NCBI GenBank assembly: GCA_963797785.1
Contig: CAWCQT010000001.1
Coordinates: forward strand, 2,494 to 66,493
Reading direction: 5' to 3'
From: an uncultured Actinomycetota bacterium
Lineage (GTDB): Bacteria; Actinomycetota; Actinomycetes; Mycobacteriales; Jatrophihabitantaceae
Length of the DNA stretch: 64,000 bases
This document shows, piece by piece, positions 55,700-62,338 of the stretch. Made by a program: the position numbers and the translations under genes. Position 1 is the stretch's first letter. Every line of letters starts with the position of its first letter. Under the pieces are notes generated by a model, which saw nothing but the letters and a program-made list of their open reading frames with translations, had not been told where the DNA came from and did no database searches.

Positions 55700-55776
55700 C
55701 GCTGGCGCACCTAGACACCCAAGGTGTCCACTATGACGCGAGACATCTGTCCTCGATGTCCCGCGACATCACATGG

Positions 55777-55818
55777 GTGGAGCTGAGGGACTCGAACCCG
55801 TGACCCCCACACTGCCAG
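55777..55818 (-). mobile_element. att site: 3' half of tRNA-Ala(GGC) marking the edge of an integrative element
   Basis: Minus strand CTGGCAGTGTGGGGGTCACGGGTTCGAGTCCCTCAGCTCCAC = anticodon loop, T-arm and acceptor 3' strand; no D-arm or 5' half. Confidence 0.85.
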
Positions 55819-55921
55819 CCGACTGTTCGATTATTCGCTGGCGTCCGCTGACGTCCGAAATGCCTGATTCGTAAGGGATTCCGGACGGATATCGAACAGG
55901 CCGAACAACCCCGAACGAAGC

Positions 55922-55944
55922 AAATGGCTACCGAAATGGCTACC
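55922..55944. repeat. tandem AAATGGCTACC repeats, probable integrase arm-type sites
   Basis: Two perfect 11-mers at 12-bp period, about 100 bp inside the att core. Confidence 0.6.
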
Positions 55945-55976
55945 AGATGATCTTTGCTTTCATCGGACTCAAGGCT

Positions 55977-57950
55977 CTAGCCGCCGATCCAATGCCGAAG
56001 GAAGCCGACTGCCGCGATCACGATTCCGAGGCTGTCGGCGCTAATCCCAACGATCTTGTCTTGGAGTCGTACGTCGCGGTCTCGAGCCCAGTCTCCGGTC
56101 TGCAGCCACCACAGGGCACTGCCACCGATTGCGCCGAGCCCCCAGGGCCAGAACGTGAGAAGCATGGTGCACACACCGATAGCAAGGGTCGCAGCGGCTA
56201 CGCCGGTCCGAATCGAAGCCCGCCGACTCAACGCCTCGACATCGGAGTGGGTCGGGCGTTCGCTCAGTTCAGAGCGAAGTCGCGCCACCTCGCTTTCCGC
56301 GGTGGCCGATCTCGCCTCAACGGCGTCGCGCTCACCCTCGACTCGCGCTGTCGCAAGTGCCGCTGAGGTAACGCGACGGTGCGCGGCCTGCCGCTCAGTC
56401 TCTTGGATCGCGTTCGCGTGCTGCATGGAGAGGTGCGCTCGCCGGGTTCGGTGTTGCTGGACCTCCTGCTCAATCCGCGCAGCCGTGCGCTCTGAAGCGG
56501 CCGCGACCACAGCAGCAACGGTTGGGAACTGCGCAACACGGACGTCGATTTCTCCTCCAACGCCGCCAAGCGTCGTTGCCAACTCGGCAGCCACCTCAGG
56601 TGGGTACCGAATGGCGACGCGATTAGCGACCTCTCGCACCAGTAGCTGGCTCGCAGCCTCGGTGAGTGAAGCAACCTCGGAGGCAGGGCGTGCGCGAGCA
56701 AGCATCGTTCCAAGAGTCGCCGGTTGCAGTACGAGAGGAACGTCCGCGAGCCCTGGGTCGATCCGGCTGAACGCAGGCCCGAGCCGTCGATCATGGGTAA
56801 GGACGAACAATCCCGGCCAAGTCACGGTGGGGTGGGCTGCTTTGAAGCGGCGGCGGTGACGTAAGGCGAGTGAAAGCGTCTCAGCGTCTCGGCTGATCGC
56901 GCTCTGCGTACGGTAAAAATTGTTCGACTCTGCAAGGACTTCCTCAAGTGCCTGGCGGCAGCGTTCAACCTGGGCGCTGTCACGGTTGCCCGCCGGCCGG
57001 ACCTCGACGCCGATCTCCTCAAGCCGGGCGCGGAACCCGCGAACCTTCTGAACAAACTGCTCCCAACTGCGAACCGCGCCCTCATCAAGCGACTGAGCGT
57101 AGGCGGCTTGAACGCTATCCCGCTCGGAGAGAGCGATGAAAGCCGCGCGCTGCCGGGGGTCGTTCACCAGGTCACGAATGAATGCCGGCTCCCCGCCTAA
57201 AACGAGATCCGCAAACTCGTCGAGGCAGCTGCTCCAGCGCCAGCACTGAAACACCCGAGTCCCGCGCCGCAGCGATGATGCGCTCGACGGGGCGTCGGAC
57301 AGCCGCGCCCGATACCAGCGAGATGAGCATCGGGGTGTCGAGAACAACCTCTTGGCCTTGCAAGGGCCCCAGCTGCCGCTGCGCTTCAGCTTGATCGAGC
57401 CGCGCCAGAAATCCATGCAGGATGCAGGATGTCGAAACGACCGTAACCAACTTATTCCCGAAGGGATCGGTCGGATCAAGTGCGGCGATAGCCGCGGCCA
57501 ACAAAAAGTCAGCTACGTCAGCAGAAGCTCCCGAGACGAGTCGCTGCTGGATCAGCCCCTGGTCTGCCGCGACGGGAAGTACGGAACTGCCTCTGTAGAA
57601 GTCGACGGCACCCAGGTACGCCTCGTCGGCGGCGCTGATTCCCGCCGGGTCAGGGTGGCCATCAGCCGGTCAGCCCCACTGCTCCTCGCCTCCCCCGGTT
57701 GCGGTGAGCGGAAGGAATCTGCCGCTCTGTCTCCAATCGAGCCAACCAAGCGACGGCGGCAGCCGGCCACCCCATTTTGCAGCTGATTCGACGTCAGCTC
57801 GACCATGGTCTGTGAGATGCCAGAGCGTTCCGTCAGTCCCTGGGTGCGTCACAAAGTAGTTGGTGGCGATCGCTCGCCCCGCCGGCAGGGCTTCATCGAC
57901 GTCCTGATCGTCGAGACACCCGCACGCAGGCCATTCAGCAGTGACAGATC
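55977..57950 (-). CDS. hypothetical wHTH - PIN-like nuclease - coiled coil - C-terminal TM protein (frameshifted)
   Basis: Frames join WHLTDHGRADV (wHTH-like), VVLDTPMLISL, LDEF, SRDAETL, FVLTHDRRL (PIN-like acidic residues), a charged helical stretch and terminal hydrophobic helices. Start uncertain. Confidence 0.5.
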
Positions 57951-58171
57951 AGCGTAGATCTCGATCGGCACTCAAACTGCTCTGCCGGAAAGCTCCACAC
58001 GGTGGAGATGAGGAGGTCGAGCCTCGTTGCGCGGCGCGCACCGCGAAACACAGCGTGGGCGGCAGCGATCGCAGTGAAGCGTGAGGCGCGCCCTCATCGT
58101 CGGCCGGGGTATGTAACGGTAGCCCTCGGGTTGCGGTCTGCTTCGTTGGTCACTATGAACTGTATACGTAG

Positions 58172-61124
58172 TAGTACTCCCGGACGTAGCCGAGGGCCTT
58201 CTCGAAGACGTCGTTGTCGCGGATCTTGAACTGGACGTAGAGCGTCTTGCGGAGCGCCTGCTGGACCTCCTGGTCGCCGTCGGATGGTCGACTGCCAGCC
58301 CTCGAAGCGGACGCCGCGCACGACCTCGTCGATTCGGTTGACGATGTTCTCGACGATGATCGGGGTCTCGTCCGTCTTGAGCGACTCGAAGAGCTCGGTC
58401 AGCGCGGCCTTGCCCTGCTCCTCGCGGGGCACCTCGTCGATCGGCCTTCTCGGCGGCGACGGTGTCGCGGGCCAGCTCGAGCAGCTCCGCGCAGGAAGTC
58501 GAGGCTGGACTGCTGGATGTCGGCGTACTTCTCCCGCAGCGCGTTGAGCCGCTGGCCGAGCTCGACGAAGACGGGGTTGTTGAGGTGGCGGGCGATCCGG
58601 GCGGTGATCTGCTTCTCGATCTCCTTCGGATCGACGTCCTTGCCGCTTGCCCGGCATCAGGTCCTCGATGGACTGCGGCGTCGAGGACGATCGTCTCCAG
58701 GTCGCTGCGCGGGACCTCGACCTGGACGTGCTCGTTGATCAGGTCGATGGTCTTGGCGCCGAGCGCGTGCCAGACCAGCCGGCCGGTGATGTCGGACGGC
58801 CGGACCGACTCGTAGACGTCGGTCAGCCAGCGGTAGTCGGCGCTGGTACGGCGACAGCATCGGGTCGGGGCTGAGCGCCTCCCAGAGCTGCGAGACGACG
58901 CTGTACGCGAGCCCGAAGGCGTCCTTGGCGGCGTCGTCGGCGATCGCCGCCTGCGCCTGGATCAGGCCCTCGTAGCCGCCGACGGTGCGGTCGACGCCGG
59001 GGAAGAACGCCAGCGCTGCGGCGATCGCCGGCGCGAGCTGCTCCTTGAGCTCGTCGATGTTGGTGATGACCTGCTGGACGCGACTTCTCGTCGAACTCGA
59101 GCGCCTTGGCGACGTCGTCGAAGATGCCGAGGTAGTCGACGATCAGGCCGTGCGTCTTGTTCGGCGGGTAGACGCGGTTGGTGCGGCTGATCGCCTGCAG
59201 CAGCGTGTGCTCCTTCAGCGGCTTGTCGAGGTACTGCGCCTGCAGGATCGGCGCGTCGAAGCCGGTGAGCAGCTTGGCGGTGACGATGATGAACTTCAGC
59301 GGGTCGGCCGGGTCGTTGAAGCGGGCGAGCGATCTGCTCCAGCTCCTCGCGCGTCCGGGCGTCCACTGCGCCCAGTCGGCCGGGTCGCCGCGGCTCTTCG
59401 ACATCACGATCGTCGACGCGTCTCGGCCGGCAGGTGCTTGTCGAGCTCGGCCTTGTAGGCACGCAGGTCGGCTTGTCGAAGACGACGACCTGGGCCTTGA
59501 AGCCCTTCGGCTCGACCTTGGCTGGTGAAGTGCTCGGCGATGTCGGCCGCGATCTGTCGCGATCCGCTCGGGAGCCTTGATCAGCACCTCGATCGAGGCG
59601 GCCTTCTTCGACAGCGTGATCTTCTCGTCCTCGGTCAGCTCGTTGCGCTCGGCCGAGCTCGGCGAAGGCGGCGTCGATGGCCTCCTGGTCGATGTGGATC
59701 TCGGACAGGCGCGGCTCGAAGTGCAGCGGCAGGGTCGCGCCGTCGCGGATCGAGTCCTGGAACGAGTAGCGGCGACAGGTAGCCGCCCTCGTCCTCGTCG
59801 GCGAGCCGAACCACAGAACGTGTTGCGGTCGCGCTTGTTGATCGGCGTGCCGGTCAGGCCGAACAGGAACGCGTTCGGCAGCGCCTCGCGCATCTTGCGG
59901 CCGTAGTCGCCCTCCTGGGTGCGGTGCGCCTCGTCGACCATCACGATGATGTTGTCGCGCGTCGTCGAGCACGCCCGGCGGCCTCGCCGAACTTGTGGAT
60001 CGTCGTGATGATGACCTTCCGCGCGTCCTGGCCAGCAGCGTCTGCAGCTCCTCGCGGCTGTCGGTCGAGACCAGGTTCGGGACGTCGGCGGCGTTGAAGG
60101 TGCCGGTGATCTGCGTGTCGAGGTCGATGCGGTCGACCACGATGAGCACCGTCGGGTTGGTCAGCGCCGGCCATCGCCCGCAGCTTCTGCGCGGCGAAGA
60201 CCATCAGCAGCGACTTGCCCGAGCCCTGGAAGTGCCAGATCAGGCCCTGCTTGATCCGGCCGAGCAGCACCCGCTCGACGATCAGGTTGGTCGCCTGGAA
60301 CTGCTGGTACCGGGCGATGATCTTGATCTTGCGGTGCTTCTTGTCGGTCGCGAACAGCGGTGAAGAACCGCAGGAAGTCCAGCACCGCCGCCGGCGTCAG
60401 CACGCCCTCGACGGCCTCCTTGACCGCCGCCAGGCCGACCTTGGCCGGAGCGTCGTCGTCGGTCGTCGTCCTCGCGCCACGGCCCCCACAGCTCGACCGG
60501 CATGCCGACCGTGCCGTAGCGGAAGTCCTTGCCCTCGGTGGCGAACGAGAACACGTTCGGCACGAAGAACTGCGGCACGTTCTGCTCGTAGTCGTCGTGG
60601 ACCTGGGCGGCGCCGTCGATCCAGGTCTACGCCGGCCGCACCGGCGACTTGGCCTCGCCGACGACCAGCGGGAAGCCGTTGCACCACAGCACCAGGTCGA
60701 ACCGCTGCTCGACGCGGCCCTGCTCTGAAGGTGACCTCGGTCGAGATCGACCACTGGTTCGCGAGTCTCGGGTCGTCGAAGTCGATCAGCCGGACGGTGA
60801 CGTGCTCGCCGTTCGGGCCGAACGGCATCGACTTCTGCCCGGTCAGCCAGGCCATGAACTCCTCGTTCGCCACGACCGGGTTCGGCGTCGTCGCGCGCGG
60901 AGAGGATGATCGCCCGCAGCTGGTAGAGGACCTCGTCGGCCAGTCGCGGGTCGGCCTCGATCTCCGGGTTCAGCCGGATCAGCGCCTCCTTGACCGCGCC
61001 TCCAGCAGCACCTCGTCGCGTCGCGACGCGGCAGCTCATTGCCCGGGACGAACTGCACGTCAACCGACTCCACGAGGTCGCGGACGAAGTCGCGAACCGA
61101 GTTGGCCTCGTTGAACTGGCTCAT
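58172..61124 (-). CDS. hsdR: type I restriction enzyme R subunit (many frameshifts)
   Basis: DLVLWCNGFPLVVGEAKSP, LIWHFQGSGKS, VDEAH, FGLTGTP, KLLTGFDAP, LLQAISRTNR, GLIVDYLG. Confidence 0.92.
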
Positions 61125-62338
61125 CAGCTGCCTCCGAAGACTCGTCGAGCAATGACGGACGCATGAGCGCTCGTCAGCGCTGACGATGCTCAGCTCGCGC
61201 AACGACTGTCGAGCGCCGCGAGCTCGACGCGATCGCGTCGACAGGATGCTCCGTTGCTGCGTCCTCGACGGAAGCGACGGGACAGCTGAGCTTCCGCAAG
61301 GCGACCACGTTGAGTGCTGCTGCGCGTTCCCGACGGACGTCTTCGACATCACTGCTGAGCGCGTCCGACGCTGAGTCAGTACCAGGCTAGGAACTGCGAC
61401 GACAGCTCGGCTGCGTCGGTCGCACGATGATGCAGATCAGTGCGATGTTGAACGCCTCGATACTCCTCCGTGCACGACTCGCGCGCCTCGACCGGTCGAG
61501 CGTGCCGCGCTCTGACGATCAGCGACGTCGCCCTACTCGCGACCGTGACGTCGCCAGTGCTTGCGCGCGATCTGCCTGAAGTCGGACATCGTCTCCGAGA
61601 TCGACTCGCCGGGCATCAGGTCTCGACCCGCGAGCGCCGGGATGCCGTCGGACGTCGTGTAGTACTGCGTCGGCTGACGACCATCCGCAACGGATGACGT
61701 CAGCGATCAGCTTCGTGACGAGACGCCAGTCGGCACTCGAGCTGCTGCGAGCAGACTCGCATGGACGCCACGTCCGAGACGACGTCCGCGACATCCGCTG
61801 CGCAGCGTCCGACGAGCGCTCCGCCGTGCCGCTCGACGGCCCACAGGAGGTCGGCGATGCGCTGCTGCTCGTCGAGCGGCGGCAGGTCGAACTCGACCGC
61901 GCGAGGTCCGACCAGTTCACGTACGGGTTGACCGAGCCCTTCGACTCGGCGATCGCGTAAGTCGTGGAACGGCTCGAGGCTACATGACGAACGGCAGGAA
62001 CTCCGGCAGCAGCTCCGTCTCGTCCTCGGCCTCGACCACGAAGGTGTTGTCGGCGCAGACGCCGTCGAAGTCGGCGACAGCGACCTTGCGCAGGTATGTG
62101 CGGCGCGAGCCGTACAGGACTTGACCCGGCGGAAGCGGCGGTGAAAGCGGGCCGAGGTAACCGTCCCCGACGTCGCCCCAGCGGTGGATCTTCAGGTCGT
62201 CGGTGTCCATGTGCTCGCCTGCGATGTAGCGGTCGACGGACCGCGGCCTCGGATCACCTTCGCCTTGACGCTGACGTTCGCGACCACGTCGCCGAAGGCG
62301 ACGCGCTTCCACGTGGTCTTGTCGAGGTCGAGGCTCAC
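61121..62338 (-). CDS. hsdS: type I restriction-modification specificity subunit (many frameshifts)
   Basis: WKRVAFGDVV, YIAGEHMDTDDL, VLYGSRRTYLRKVAVADFDG, LPPLDEQQRIA; lies between hsdM and hsdR. Confidence 0.85.

What the first reader, a model, noticed from the sequence alone, without database searches (positions are those of the whole stretch)
55977..57950. wHTH-PIN-coiled-coil-transmembrane protein beside a type I R-M system: candidate anti-phage gene
Seen: after joining two or three frameshifts, a protein of roughly 650 aa with VVLDT, LDEF, RDA and LTHD motifs, a long charged helix and terminal hydrophobic segments. It is the last gene inside a tRNA-integrated element, next to hsdR. Established: PIN folds are RNases with these acidic residues, and such islands accumulate defence genes. 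Inference: a membrane-anchored PIN RNase effector; I do not recognise this architecture as a named system.
Basis: partly seen in the sequence, partly recalled or inferred. Interest (0 to 1): 0.65.

Follow-up and report, generated by a model that had tools for sequence, protein, structure and literature searches.

The report
Membrane-anchored PIN nuclease, candidate defence gene
The flagged stretch encodes, across several reading-frame breaks that are probably sequencing errors, a member of an unnamed, rare family of about 700-residue actinobacterial proteins that join a DNA-binding winged helix and a PIN-type nuclease to a long helical stalk and a membrane anchor, and that travel on mobile elements and defence islands, so it is a credible but untested new anti-phage or anti-plasmid gene.

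Summary
The gene lies on the minus strand from about 58097 to 55977, not from 57950. It needs 5-6 frame corrections, not 2-3, and encodes about 700 aa. Intact homologues of 41-49% identity are 705-719 aa.

A profile search finds 331 clusters. None matches a Pfam, NCBIfam or PADLOC family. A confident AlphaFold2 model (pLDDT 88.5) shows a winged helix, a PIN-like domain with a helical insert, a 75-residue single helix and three hydrophobic C-terminal helices. Foldseek recovers VapC/PIN and PadR-type folds. The four acidic residues are kept in 117-123 of 123 members.

The gene is the last cargo gene of a 29-kb island integrated at tRNA-Ala. It lies 55 nt downstream of hsdR. In 9 of 15 contexts, homologues sit in tRNA-integrated mobilisable elements or beside defence genes (Wadjet, TIR, OLD/AriA-like, SoFic, SIR2/HEPN).

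In 4 of 15 contexts they sit directly downstream of ribonucleotide reductase genes. This is unexplained.

The frame breaks are probably assembly errors. hsdR has 24 of them, mostly +1 nt, while conserved residues are retained. Reads could not be checked. Function is inferred only.

The parts
55774..55818 (-). 45-nt direct repeat of the 3' end of tRNA-Ala(GGC). This is the distal att-type boundary of the island. The intact tRNA lies outside the window, at window-equivalent 85159-85233.
   Evidence: blastn against the whole genome gives a 46-nt match at 95.7% identity to C1:87650-87695, inside the ARAGORN tRNA-Ala at C1:87652-87726. ARAGORN finds no tRNA in the window. Rfam gives only a sub-threshold tmRNA-like hit at 55775-55912.
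55819..55952 (.). Conserved terminal arm of the integrated element. It carries two AAATGGCTACC repeats (55922-55932 and 55934-55944), which are probably integrase arm sites.
   Evidence: The stretch is 86-94% identical in several same-genus genomes. Alignment with G003 and G023 shows conservation from the tRNA fragment up to GATGATC and divergence after it, so the cargo starts here.
55977..58097 (-). Frame-broken gene for a wHTH / PIN-like / coiled-coil / membrane-anchor protein of about 700 aa.
   Evidence: Three-frame translation. Frameshift-aware alignment to P0003 and P0002. Homologues at E values down to 2.7e-153.
57772..58072 (-). N-terminal helices and winged helix-turn-helix. This is the most damaged part, with frame changes near 58000 and 57950 and a stop between them.
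   Evidence: AF2 of homologue P0005 shows H30-49, H55-65, H73-84 and strands 91-104. Foldseek matches PadR/F93 at TM 0.60-0.64 and probability 0.98-1.0. Coordinates.
56784..57348 (-). PIN-like nuclease domain with a helical insert of about 60 aa. It runs from VVLDT (57334-57348) through LDEF (57201-57224) and RDA (56880-56894) to THD (within 56784-56819). The frame change at 57225 falls between the first Asp and the Glu.
   Evidence: Foldseek matches VapC/PIN structures 3zvk_C, 1v8o, 2fe1, 6nkl and 7vwo at TM 0.55-0.64 and probability 0.84-1.0. The top BFVD hit is 'PIN like domain'. Acidic residues are kept in 117-123 of 123 members. Pfam PIN_3 or PIN gives weak hits in 8 of 9 members.
56220..56492 (-). 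Long charged single helix, probably a coiled-coil stalk.
   Evidence: AF2 helix 546-620 in P0005. Coordinates.
55998..56207 (-). Three hydrophobic C-terminal helices, the predicted membrane anchor. An Arg-rich stretch precedes them.
   Evidence: Kyte-Doolittle scan: every full-length member of A3 has at least one C-terminal hydrophobic segment, and most have two or three. AF2 helices 624-653, 657-679 and 685-706. R633 is kept in 116 of 123 members.
58153..61352 (-). Neighbouring hsdR of a type I R-M system, on the same strand. It is riddled with frame breaks.
   Evidence: Frameshift-aware alignment to the intact 1012-aa HsdR of relative G015 gives 24 frame changes (19 of +1 nt) and 1 stop, with helicase motifs preserved.

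Best explanation
Once the frames are corrected, the locus encodes a member of an uncharacterised, rare actinobacterial family of about 700 aa.

Shown:
- From N to C the protein has a winged-helix DNA-binding module, a helical linker and a PIN-like nuclease domain with a helical insert.
- The nuclease domain has a fully conserved Asp-Glu-Asp-Asp site.
- Then come a helical domain, one helix of about 75 residues, and two or three hydrophobic helices.
- It is a stand-alone gene in the cargo slot at the edge of a 29-kb mobilisable element that is integrated at tRNA-Ala and carries a TrwC relaxase.
- Its relatives recur in such elements and next to known defence genes.

Inferred:
- The hydrophobic helices anchor the protein in the cytoplasmic membrane, with the bulk of the protein in the cytoplasm. 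The Arg-rich stretch before the first hydrophobic helix supports this.
- The long helix forms a dimeric stalk.
- The winged helix recognises a nucleic acid, and the PIN site cleaves it.
- The most likely role is a single-protein defence or exclusion nuclease that acts at the membrane on incoming phage or plasmid nucleic acid. The alternative is a membrane-restrained suicide RNase.

The 5-6 frame breaks in this copy are most likely consensus errors of a poorly covered island, not decay.
For: Homology: 41-49% identity to intact 705-719-aa proteins. The profile search finds 331 representative clusters, 200 of them at E<=1e-30 and nearly all about 700 aa.

Fold: AF2 with 123 sequences gives pLDDT 88.5 and pTM 0.76. 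Foldseek matches VapC/PIN, FEN1, HARP and PadR/F93.

Active site, counted in 123 sequences down to about 20% identity:
- D261: 120 Asp and 3 Glu.
- T262: 122 of 123.
- E301: 123 of 123.
- D412: 123 of 123.
- D444: 117 Asp and 5 Glu.

The C-terminal hydrophobic segments are conserved. No partner gene is conserved.

Context:
- Window: island at tRNA-Ala with type I R-M, TrwC, an excisionase-type HTH_17 domain, an integrase and Fic.
- tRNA-Thr element with xis-int-gene-TrwC.
- tRNA-Phe element with int-gene-ThsB_TIR...TrwC.
- tRNA-Arg island with SoFic, PDC-S35 TIR and PDC-M14A.
- Adjacent AriA/OLD-like ATPase and PDC-S02 on a relaxase element.
- PDC-S48 upstream on a conjugative element.
- Wadjet II adjacent.
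- HEC-09 upstream.
- SIR2 nearby and an overlapping HEPN gene.

Prevalence is 2 of 400 genomes of the class, so the gene is accessory.

Artefact reading of the frame breaks:
- The frame-corrected copy keeps 43 of 45 columns that are at least 80% conserved.
- hsdR has 24 frame breaks, 19 of them +1 nt, with its motifs intact.
- Window 57.5-66.5 kb is the least frame-coherent 9 kb of the 4.34-Mb genome.
- Genes at 1-55 kb are intact.
Against: - No experiment bears on this family, and no defence database lists it.
- Foldseek E-values for the whole chain are weak (0.03-1). Support comes from the domain-level probability and TM scores.
- Pfam PIN hits are all below threshold.
- Membrane anchoring rests on hydropathy and an AF2 model only.
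- Four of 15 homologues lie directly downstream of ribonucleotide reductase genes. Two of these have only 10-12 nt between the genes, which suggests co-transcription with a housekeeping operon.
- Three contexts show neither defence nor mobile-element genes.
- No member was found on viral contigs.
Confidence: 0.5

Rival explanations
1. The copy in this genome is a true pseudogene inside a decaying, immobilised island. The R-M genes, relaxase and integrase are all broken, so nothing functional is encoded here.
For: The target has 5-6 frame breaks, hsdR has 24, and TrwC and the integrase are split over frames. Genes outside the island are intact. The G372 homologue is also split in two.
Against: After frame correction, 43 of 45 conserved columns and all four catalytic residues are retained. 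The hsdR motifs are intact, with only 1 stop per about 1000 codons. Single-base insertions dominate (19 of 24 in hsdR), which is opposite to the usual deletion bias of bacterial decay (established knowledge). Both island ends are clean: the last 1250 nt of the target and the 451-aa Fic ORF.
Confidence: 0.25
2. The protein serves the mobile element itself rather than host immunity. It could be an entry-exclusion or transfer-associated membrane nuclease of TrwC-type integrative mobilisable elements, or an addiction-type VapC-like toxin with a fused regulator.
For: Five contexts are relaxase-bearing or conjugative elements, and the gene sits near their att or int ends. The closest solved folds are VapC toxins. 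A winged helix could autoregulate, as VapB antitoxins do (inference).
Against: Related elements in the same genus carry different cargo at this slot. Many homologues lie outside any element. There is no antitoxin-like partner. The size and multi-domain build are unlike type II toxins.
Confidence: 0.15
3. The family has a cellular role tied to nucleotide supply or replication stress, is co-expressed with ribonucleotide reductase, and lands on mobile elements only secondarily.
For: The gene follows nrdJ or nrdEF on the same strand in 4 of 15 contexts. The gaps are 10 nt and 12 nt in two of them. These four members are scattered over the family tree.
Against: The family is present in only 2 of 400 genomes of the class. 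In Modestobacter the same site also holds Wadjet, so it behaves as an insertion hotspot. The closest relatives of an RNR-adjacent member sit on tRNA-integrated elements.
Confidence: 0.1

Closest known systems
VapC-type PIN toxins (PIN domain-like superfamily, Matelska et al. 2017, PMC5499597)
   Same: The nuclease domain has the same fold by Foldseek (3zvk_C, 1v8o, 2fe1, 6nkl). It has the same four-acidic-residue site, including the 'LDT' first-strand motif.
   Different: VapC is about 130 aa, soluble and paired with a VapB antitoxin. Here the PIN domain carries a helical insert of about 60 aa. It sits inside a 700-aa protein with a winged helix, a stalk and a membrane anchor, and it has no partner gene. 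No Pfam PIN model reaches threshold.
SNIPE (membrane-bound GIY-YIG nuclease that cleaves phage DNA during injection; PMC13190303)
   Same: The logic is the same: a single protein in which a nuclease and a nucleic-acid-binding module are tethered to the inner membrane. It is carried as a stand-alone defence gene.
   Different: There is no homology. SNIPE has an N-terminal transmembrane helix, DUF4041 and a GIY-YIG domain. This family has a C-terminal anchor, a winged helix and a PIN-like domain. SNIPE is experimentally proven and this family is not.
PIN.COG4956 / YacL-type PIN-TRAM membrane proteins (PMC5499597)
   Same: It is the only membrane-bound group I found in that classification of the PIN superfamily.
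   Different: That group has four N-terminal transmembrane helices and a C-terminal TRAM domain, and is widespread in bacteria. Here the anchor is C-terminal, there is no TRAM domain, a winged helix and a stalk are added, and the family is rare.
'PIN like domain' proteins of about 350 aa (DUF4935 or PIN_8-type; BFVD hit A0A8S5M7Q9)
   Same: It is the best structural match among viral proteins (probability 1.0 over 235 columns). It is a PIN core extended by extra helices.
   Different: It has no winged helix, stalk or anchor. No Pfam hit links the two at sequence level.

Membership tests
PIN domain-like superfamily | Three-layer alpha/beta/alpha fold with a central parallel sheet. | tested here: met
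   AF2 model with pLDDT 88.5. Foldseek matches VapC/PAE PIN structures at target-normalised TM 0.55-0.64 and probability 0.84-1.0. The first, shallower model gave the same hits.
PIN domain-like superfamily | Three to four conserved acidic residues in the order D...E...D...D. | tested here: met
   In 123 members, D261 is 120 Asp and 3 Glu, E301 is 123 of 123, D412 is 123 of 123, and D444 is 117 Asp and 5 Glu. All four are present in the window copy.
PIN domain-like superfamily | Significant match to a curated PIN sequence model. | tested here: inconclusive
   PIN_3 matches 6 of 9 members and PIN matches 2 of 9, with a best E-value of 0.00077. All are below the gathering score.
VapBC type II toxin-antitoxin | A small stand-alone PIN toxin with an adjacent antitoxin gene. 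| tested here: not met
   The protein is 700 aa and multi-domain. No neighbour is conserved across 15 contexts.
SNIPE | DUF4041 plus a GIY-YIG nuclease behind an N-terminal membrane anchor. | tested here: not met
   There are no Pfam or PADLOC hits to these domains. The fold is PIN, and the anchor is C-terminal.
Known or candidate defence systems in PADLOC-DB v2.0.0 | A match to any of its 5027 models. | tested here: not met
   The window copy has no hit at E<=1. The nine homologues give only two chance-level hits at E>0.01.
Defence gene by guilt by association | Recurrent location next to known defence genes or on mobile elements. | tested here: met
   9 of 15 contexts qualify. The sample is small and no background rate was computed.
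Defence gene | Protection against phage or plasmid when expressed. | not testable with these tools
   This needs an experiment.
Integral or anchored membrane protein | Transmembrane helices. | tested here: inconclusive
   There are two or three C-terminal hydrophobic helices by Kyte-Doolittle scan and AF2, preceded by conserved Arg residues. No dedicated topology predictor was available.

The most novel reading that the evidence does not exclude
This is a new single-protein immune or exclusion system of Actinobacteria. A dimeric, membrane-tethered winged-helix/PIN nuclease cuts invading phage or plasmid nucleic acid at the point of entry. The logic is that of SNIPE but the fold is unrelated. 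Integrative mobilisable elements spread it as cargo. In some lineages it is wired to the ribonucleotide reductase operon, so that its level follows nucleotide stress.
Probability: 0.3. Interest if true: 0.75.

Novelty: new variant of a known kind. Interest (0 to 1): 0.55.

Why it matters
Few defence systems have been shown experimentally in high-GC Actinobacteria, and most catalogued ones come from proteobacterial or Firmicute screens.

This family has no Pfam, NCBIfam or PADLOC model. It has a conserved active site and a confident structure model. It combines sensor, effector and membrane tether in one protein, and it rides in the cargo slot of tRNA-integrating mobilisable elements. It is therefore a clean, single-gene candidate for experiment.

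If the membrane-tethered nuclease idea holds, spatial self/non-self discrimination at the membrane would have arisen at least twice, with unrelated nuclease folds. SNIPE is the recent proven case.

The recurrent placement after ribonucleotide reductase genes is an independent puzzle that can be tested.

Tried and rejected
Neither the frame breaks nor coverage could be checked.
- DNA search of 40 relatives for a near-identical island found none. Only the 51-nt element arm and distant hsdR pieces matched, so indel positions could not be read off a close relative.
- The search for related loci gave only 2 loci in genome contigs, 0 in viral contigs and 4 short ones in metagenome contigs.
- Profile search against PDB sequences found no PIN hit, only a chance importin match.
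- NCBIfam found nothing.
- A conserved downstream small partner was tested and rejected.
- A promoter and terminator scan around the gene found nothing.
- A GC3 frame plot was too noisy in this lower-GC island. A periodicity-coherence scan replaced it.
- Looking up ten distant representatives gave no organism names. They are metagenome singletons.
- Literature searches for a named PIN plus transmembrane defence system found none.

Full report
**1. What is in the sequence**

Three-frame translation of the minus strand shows one gene spread over three frames.
- The last 411 codons, from LDEF to the stop at 55977-55979, are one open frame.
- The public gene call P0001 (479 aa) starts in this frame and therefore lacks the first catalytic Asp.
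- A frameshift-aware alignment against two intact homologues needs frame changes near 58000, 57950, 57771, 57650 and 57225. It also needs one stop in the unresolved stretch 57950-58000.
- The only start codon near the conserved N-terminal helix (57998-58072) is the ATG at 58097. It is in yet another frame, so a sixth change is likely.
- The hsdR stop is at 58153, so the gene follows hsdR on the same strand after 55 nt.

**2. It is a real gene family**
- A search of 5.8 billion proteins found intact relatives of 705-719 aa at 41-49% identity. They come from Modestobacter/Goekera, a Jatrophihabitans MAG and metagenomes. A 30% relative comes from Clavibacter.
- A second search added Cryobacterium, Rathayibacter and Curtobacterium. 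One JGI record calls its member 'predicted nucleic acid-binding protein'.
- A profile search of 1.84 billion representatives gave 331 clusters at E<=1e-3 and 200 at E<=1e-30. Nearly all are about 700 aa and match end to end.
- In a sample of 400 genomes of the same class, only 2 carry it. It was not found on viral contigs.
- Pfam, NCBIfam and PADLOC have no model for it.

**3. Structure**

With nine sequences AlphaFold2 gave pLDDT 69. With 123 sequences it gave pLDDT 88.5 and pTM 0.76.

Domain order, in P0005 numbering:

| Residues | Feature |
|---|---|
| 15-49 | helices |
| about 50-105 | winged helix |
| 106-169 | two long helices |
| 172-182 | small hairpin |
| 187-250 | helices |
| 257-454 | PIN-like domain, with a helical insert at about 310-370 |
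| 467-545 | helical domain |
| 546-620 | one continuous helix |
| 624-706 | three hydrophobic helices |

- Foldseek against the PDB returns VapC/PIN proteins (3zvk_C, 1v8o, 2fe1, 6nkl, 7vwo) at target-normalised TM 0.55-0.64 and probability 0.84-1.0.
- It also returns FEN1 and HARP, and PadR/F93 winged helices at TM 0.60-0.64.
- Whole-chain E-values are weak, as expected for a multi-domain query.
- The best viral match is a 366-aa 'PIN like domain' protein.
- Across 123 members down to about 20% identity, the acidic tetrad is essentially invariant. D261 is 120 Asp and 3 Glu, E301 is 123 of 123, D412 is 123 of 123, and D444 is 117 Asp and 5 Glu.
- The Thr after the first Asp is kept in 122 of 123 members, as in the VapC 'LDT' motif.
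- Every full-length member scanned has at least one hydrophobic segment in its last 100 residues, and most have two or three. A conserved Arg cluster precedes them.

**4. The island**
- The whole genome (4 contigs, 4.34 Mb, 72% GC) shows an intact tRNA-Ala(GGC) 29.3 kb to the right of the 45-nt tRNA 3' repeat at 55774-55818.
- Between them lie the target gene, a type I R-M system, a second N6 methylase, a TrwC relaxase/helicase, an HTH_17 excisionase-type domain, a tyrosine integrase and a Fic protein.
- The 130 nt between the repeat and the gene are conserved in same-genus genomes. They include two AAATGGCTACC repeats, and similarity ends exactly where the gene's 3' end begins.
- The gene therefore occupies the variable cargo slot at the arm of a family of tRNA-Ala elements.

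**5. Are the frame breaks real?**

I could not look at reads. Indirect evidence favours consensus errors.
- hsdR needs 24 frame changes in 3.3 kb, 19 of them single extra bases. Its helicase motifs are nevertheless preserved, and only one stop appears.
- TrwC and the integrase are also split.
- The frame-corrected target keeps 43 of 45 family columns that are at least 80% conserved.
- Window 57.5-66.5 kb is the least frame-coherent 9 kb of the whole genome. Its coherence is 0.42 against a mean of 0.79 and SD of 0.07, with normal local codon periodicity.
- Long genes at 1-55 kb are intact.
- The island's two ends are clean.
- Many insertions without substitutional decay fit a poorly covered long-read region better than natural erosion.
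- I put the artefact reading at about 0.7 and true pseudogenisation at about 0.25.

**6. Neighbourhoods of homologues (15 contexts)**

Mobile-element or defence contexts, 9 of 15:
- This window.
- A tRNA-Thr element with xis-int-gene-TrwC.
- A tRNA-Phe element with int-gene-ThsB_TIR and TrwC.
- A tRNA-Arg island with SoFic, a PDC-S35 TIR protein, PDC-M14A, and a Schlafen-type helicase with MazG.
- A relaxase-bearing element with an adjacent AriA/OLD-like ATPase and PDC-S02.
- A conjugative element with PDC-S48 upstream.
- Wadjet type II adjacent.
- HEC-09 upstream.
- An island with SIR2, an overlapping HEPN gene, a transposase and an RHS toxin.

Other contexts:
- Three contexts show nothing of the kind.
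- No partner gene is conserved.

**7. An unexplained pattern**
- In four contexts the gene directly follows a ribonucleotide reductase gene on the same strand.
- Three are nrdR-nrdJ-gene: Modestobacter (186-nt gap), a JGI contig (10-nt gap) and genome G372 (12-nt gap).
- The fourth is nrdHIEF-gene in Curtobacterium.
- These members are scattered across the family tree, interleaved with members from mobile elements.
- This could be an insertion hotspot (Wadjet sits at the same site in Modestobacter), an ancestral site, or real coupling to nucleotide stress. It tempers the defence reading.

**8. Mechanism**

The domains, the conserved site, the stand-alone status and the cargo position are shown. 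Three steps are inferred:
- Cytoplasmic orientation, with the tail in the membrane.
- Dimerisation through the long helix.
- Nucleic-acid recognition by the winged helix and cleavage by the PIN site.

The nearest functional analogue is SNIPE, a membrane-bound GIY-YIG nuclease that cuts phage DNA during injection (PMC13190303). The nearest structural relatives are VapC RNases. In the 2017 classification of the PIN superfamily, the text passages I searched name only one membrane-bound group, PIN-TRAM with N-terminal helices (PMC5499597). Whether the substrate is RNA or DNA, and whether the outcome is direct clearance or abortive infection, cannot be decided in silico.

**9. Verdict**

It is a new variant of a known kind, a nuclease effector tethered to the membrane. 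It belongs to an unnamed family and is worth a bench test. This particular copy needs sequence verification first.

Noticed in passing
window 58153-61352 and on to 64000: hsdR needs 24 frame changes (19 of +1 nt) and 1 stop to align with an intact relative. hsdS and hsdM also look broken. Window 57.5-66.5 kb is the least frame-coherent 9 kb of the 4.34-Mb genome. Any reading of this R-M system should allow for poor consensus quality.
   Followed up: partly
window 55819-55952: A conserved element arm with two AAATGGCTACC repeats is shared at 86-94% identity with several same-genus genomes. Similarity stops at the cargo boundary. A family of tRNA-Ala integrating elements with exchangeable cargo is likely.
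   Followed up: partly
L001 6942-12133; L027 8787-12103; L024/L022 (G372); JGI contig of P0024: The family gene lies directly downstream of ribonucleotide reductase genes in four distant lineages. Two of them have intergenic gaps of only 10-12 nt.
   Followed up: partly
L032 10001-13670: In a distant member the 3' end of the gene overlaps the start of a 468-aa HEPN_LA2681 gene by 11 nt. This may be a two-gene module in that branch. SIR2_2, a transposase and an RHS toxin are nearby.
   Followed up: no
genome C1:78200-87726 (window-equivalent 75.7-85.2 kb, outside the window): The rest of the island holds a TrwC relaxase/helicase, an HTH_17 domain and a tyrosine integrase, all split over frames. 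A seemingly intact 451-aa Fic ORF lies next to the intact tRNA-Ala. The integrase is 4.7 kb from the tRNA, so the island may be composite.
   Followed up: partly
window 20000-64000: GC is 0.61-0.69 against 0.72 for the genome, so much more than the 29-kb island looks horizontally acquired.
   Followed up: no
window 55775-55912, minus strand: There is a sub-threshold Rfam tmRNA hit (22 bits, E 5e-07). It is explained by the tRNA-like 3' fragment. The real tmRNA is at C1:98007-98382.
   Followed up: yes
genome C2:397200-406200, C2:906300-915300, C2:784800-793800, C4:834000-843000: These are other regions of low codon-frame coherence. The first has only 51% GC. They could be further foreign or poorly assembled segments.
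   Followed up: no
L022/L024 (G372:C55): The homologue in this draft genome is also split into two frames near residue 207.
   Followed up: no
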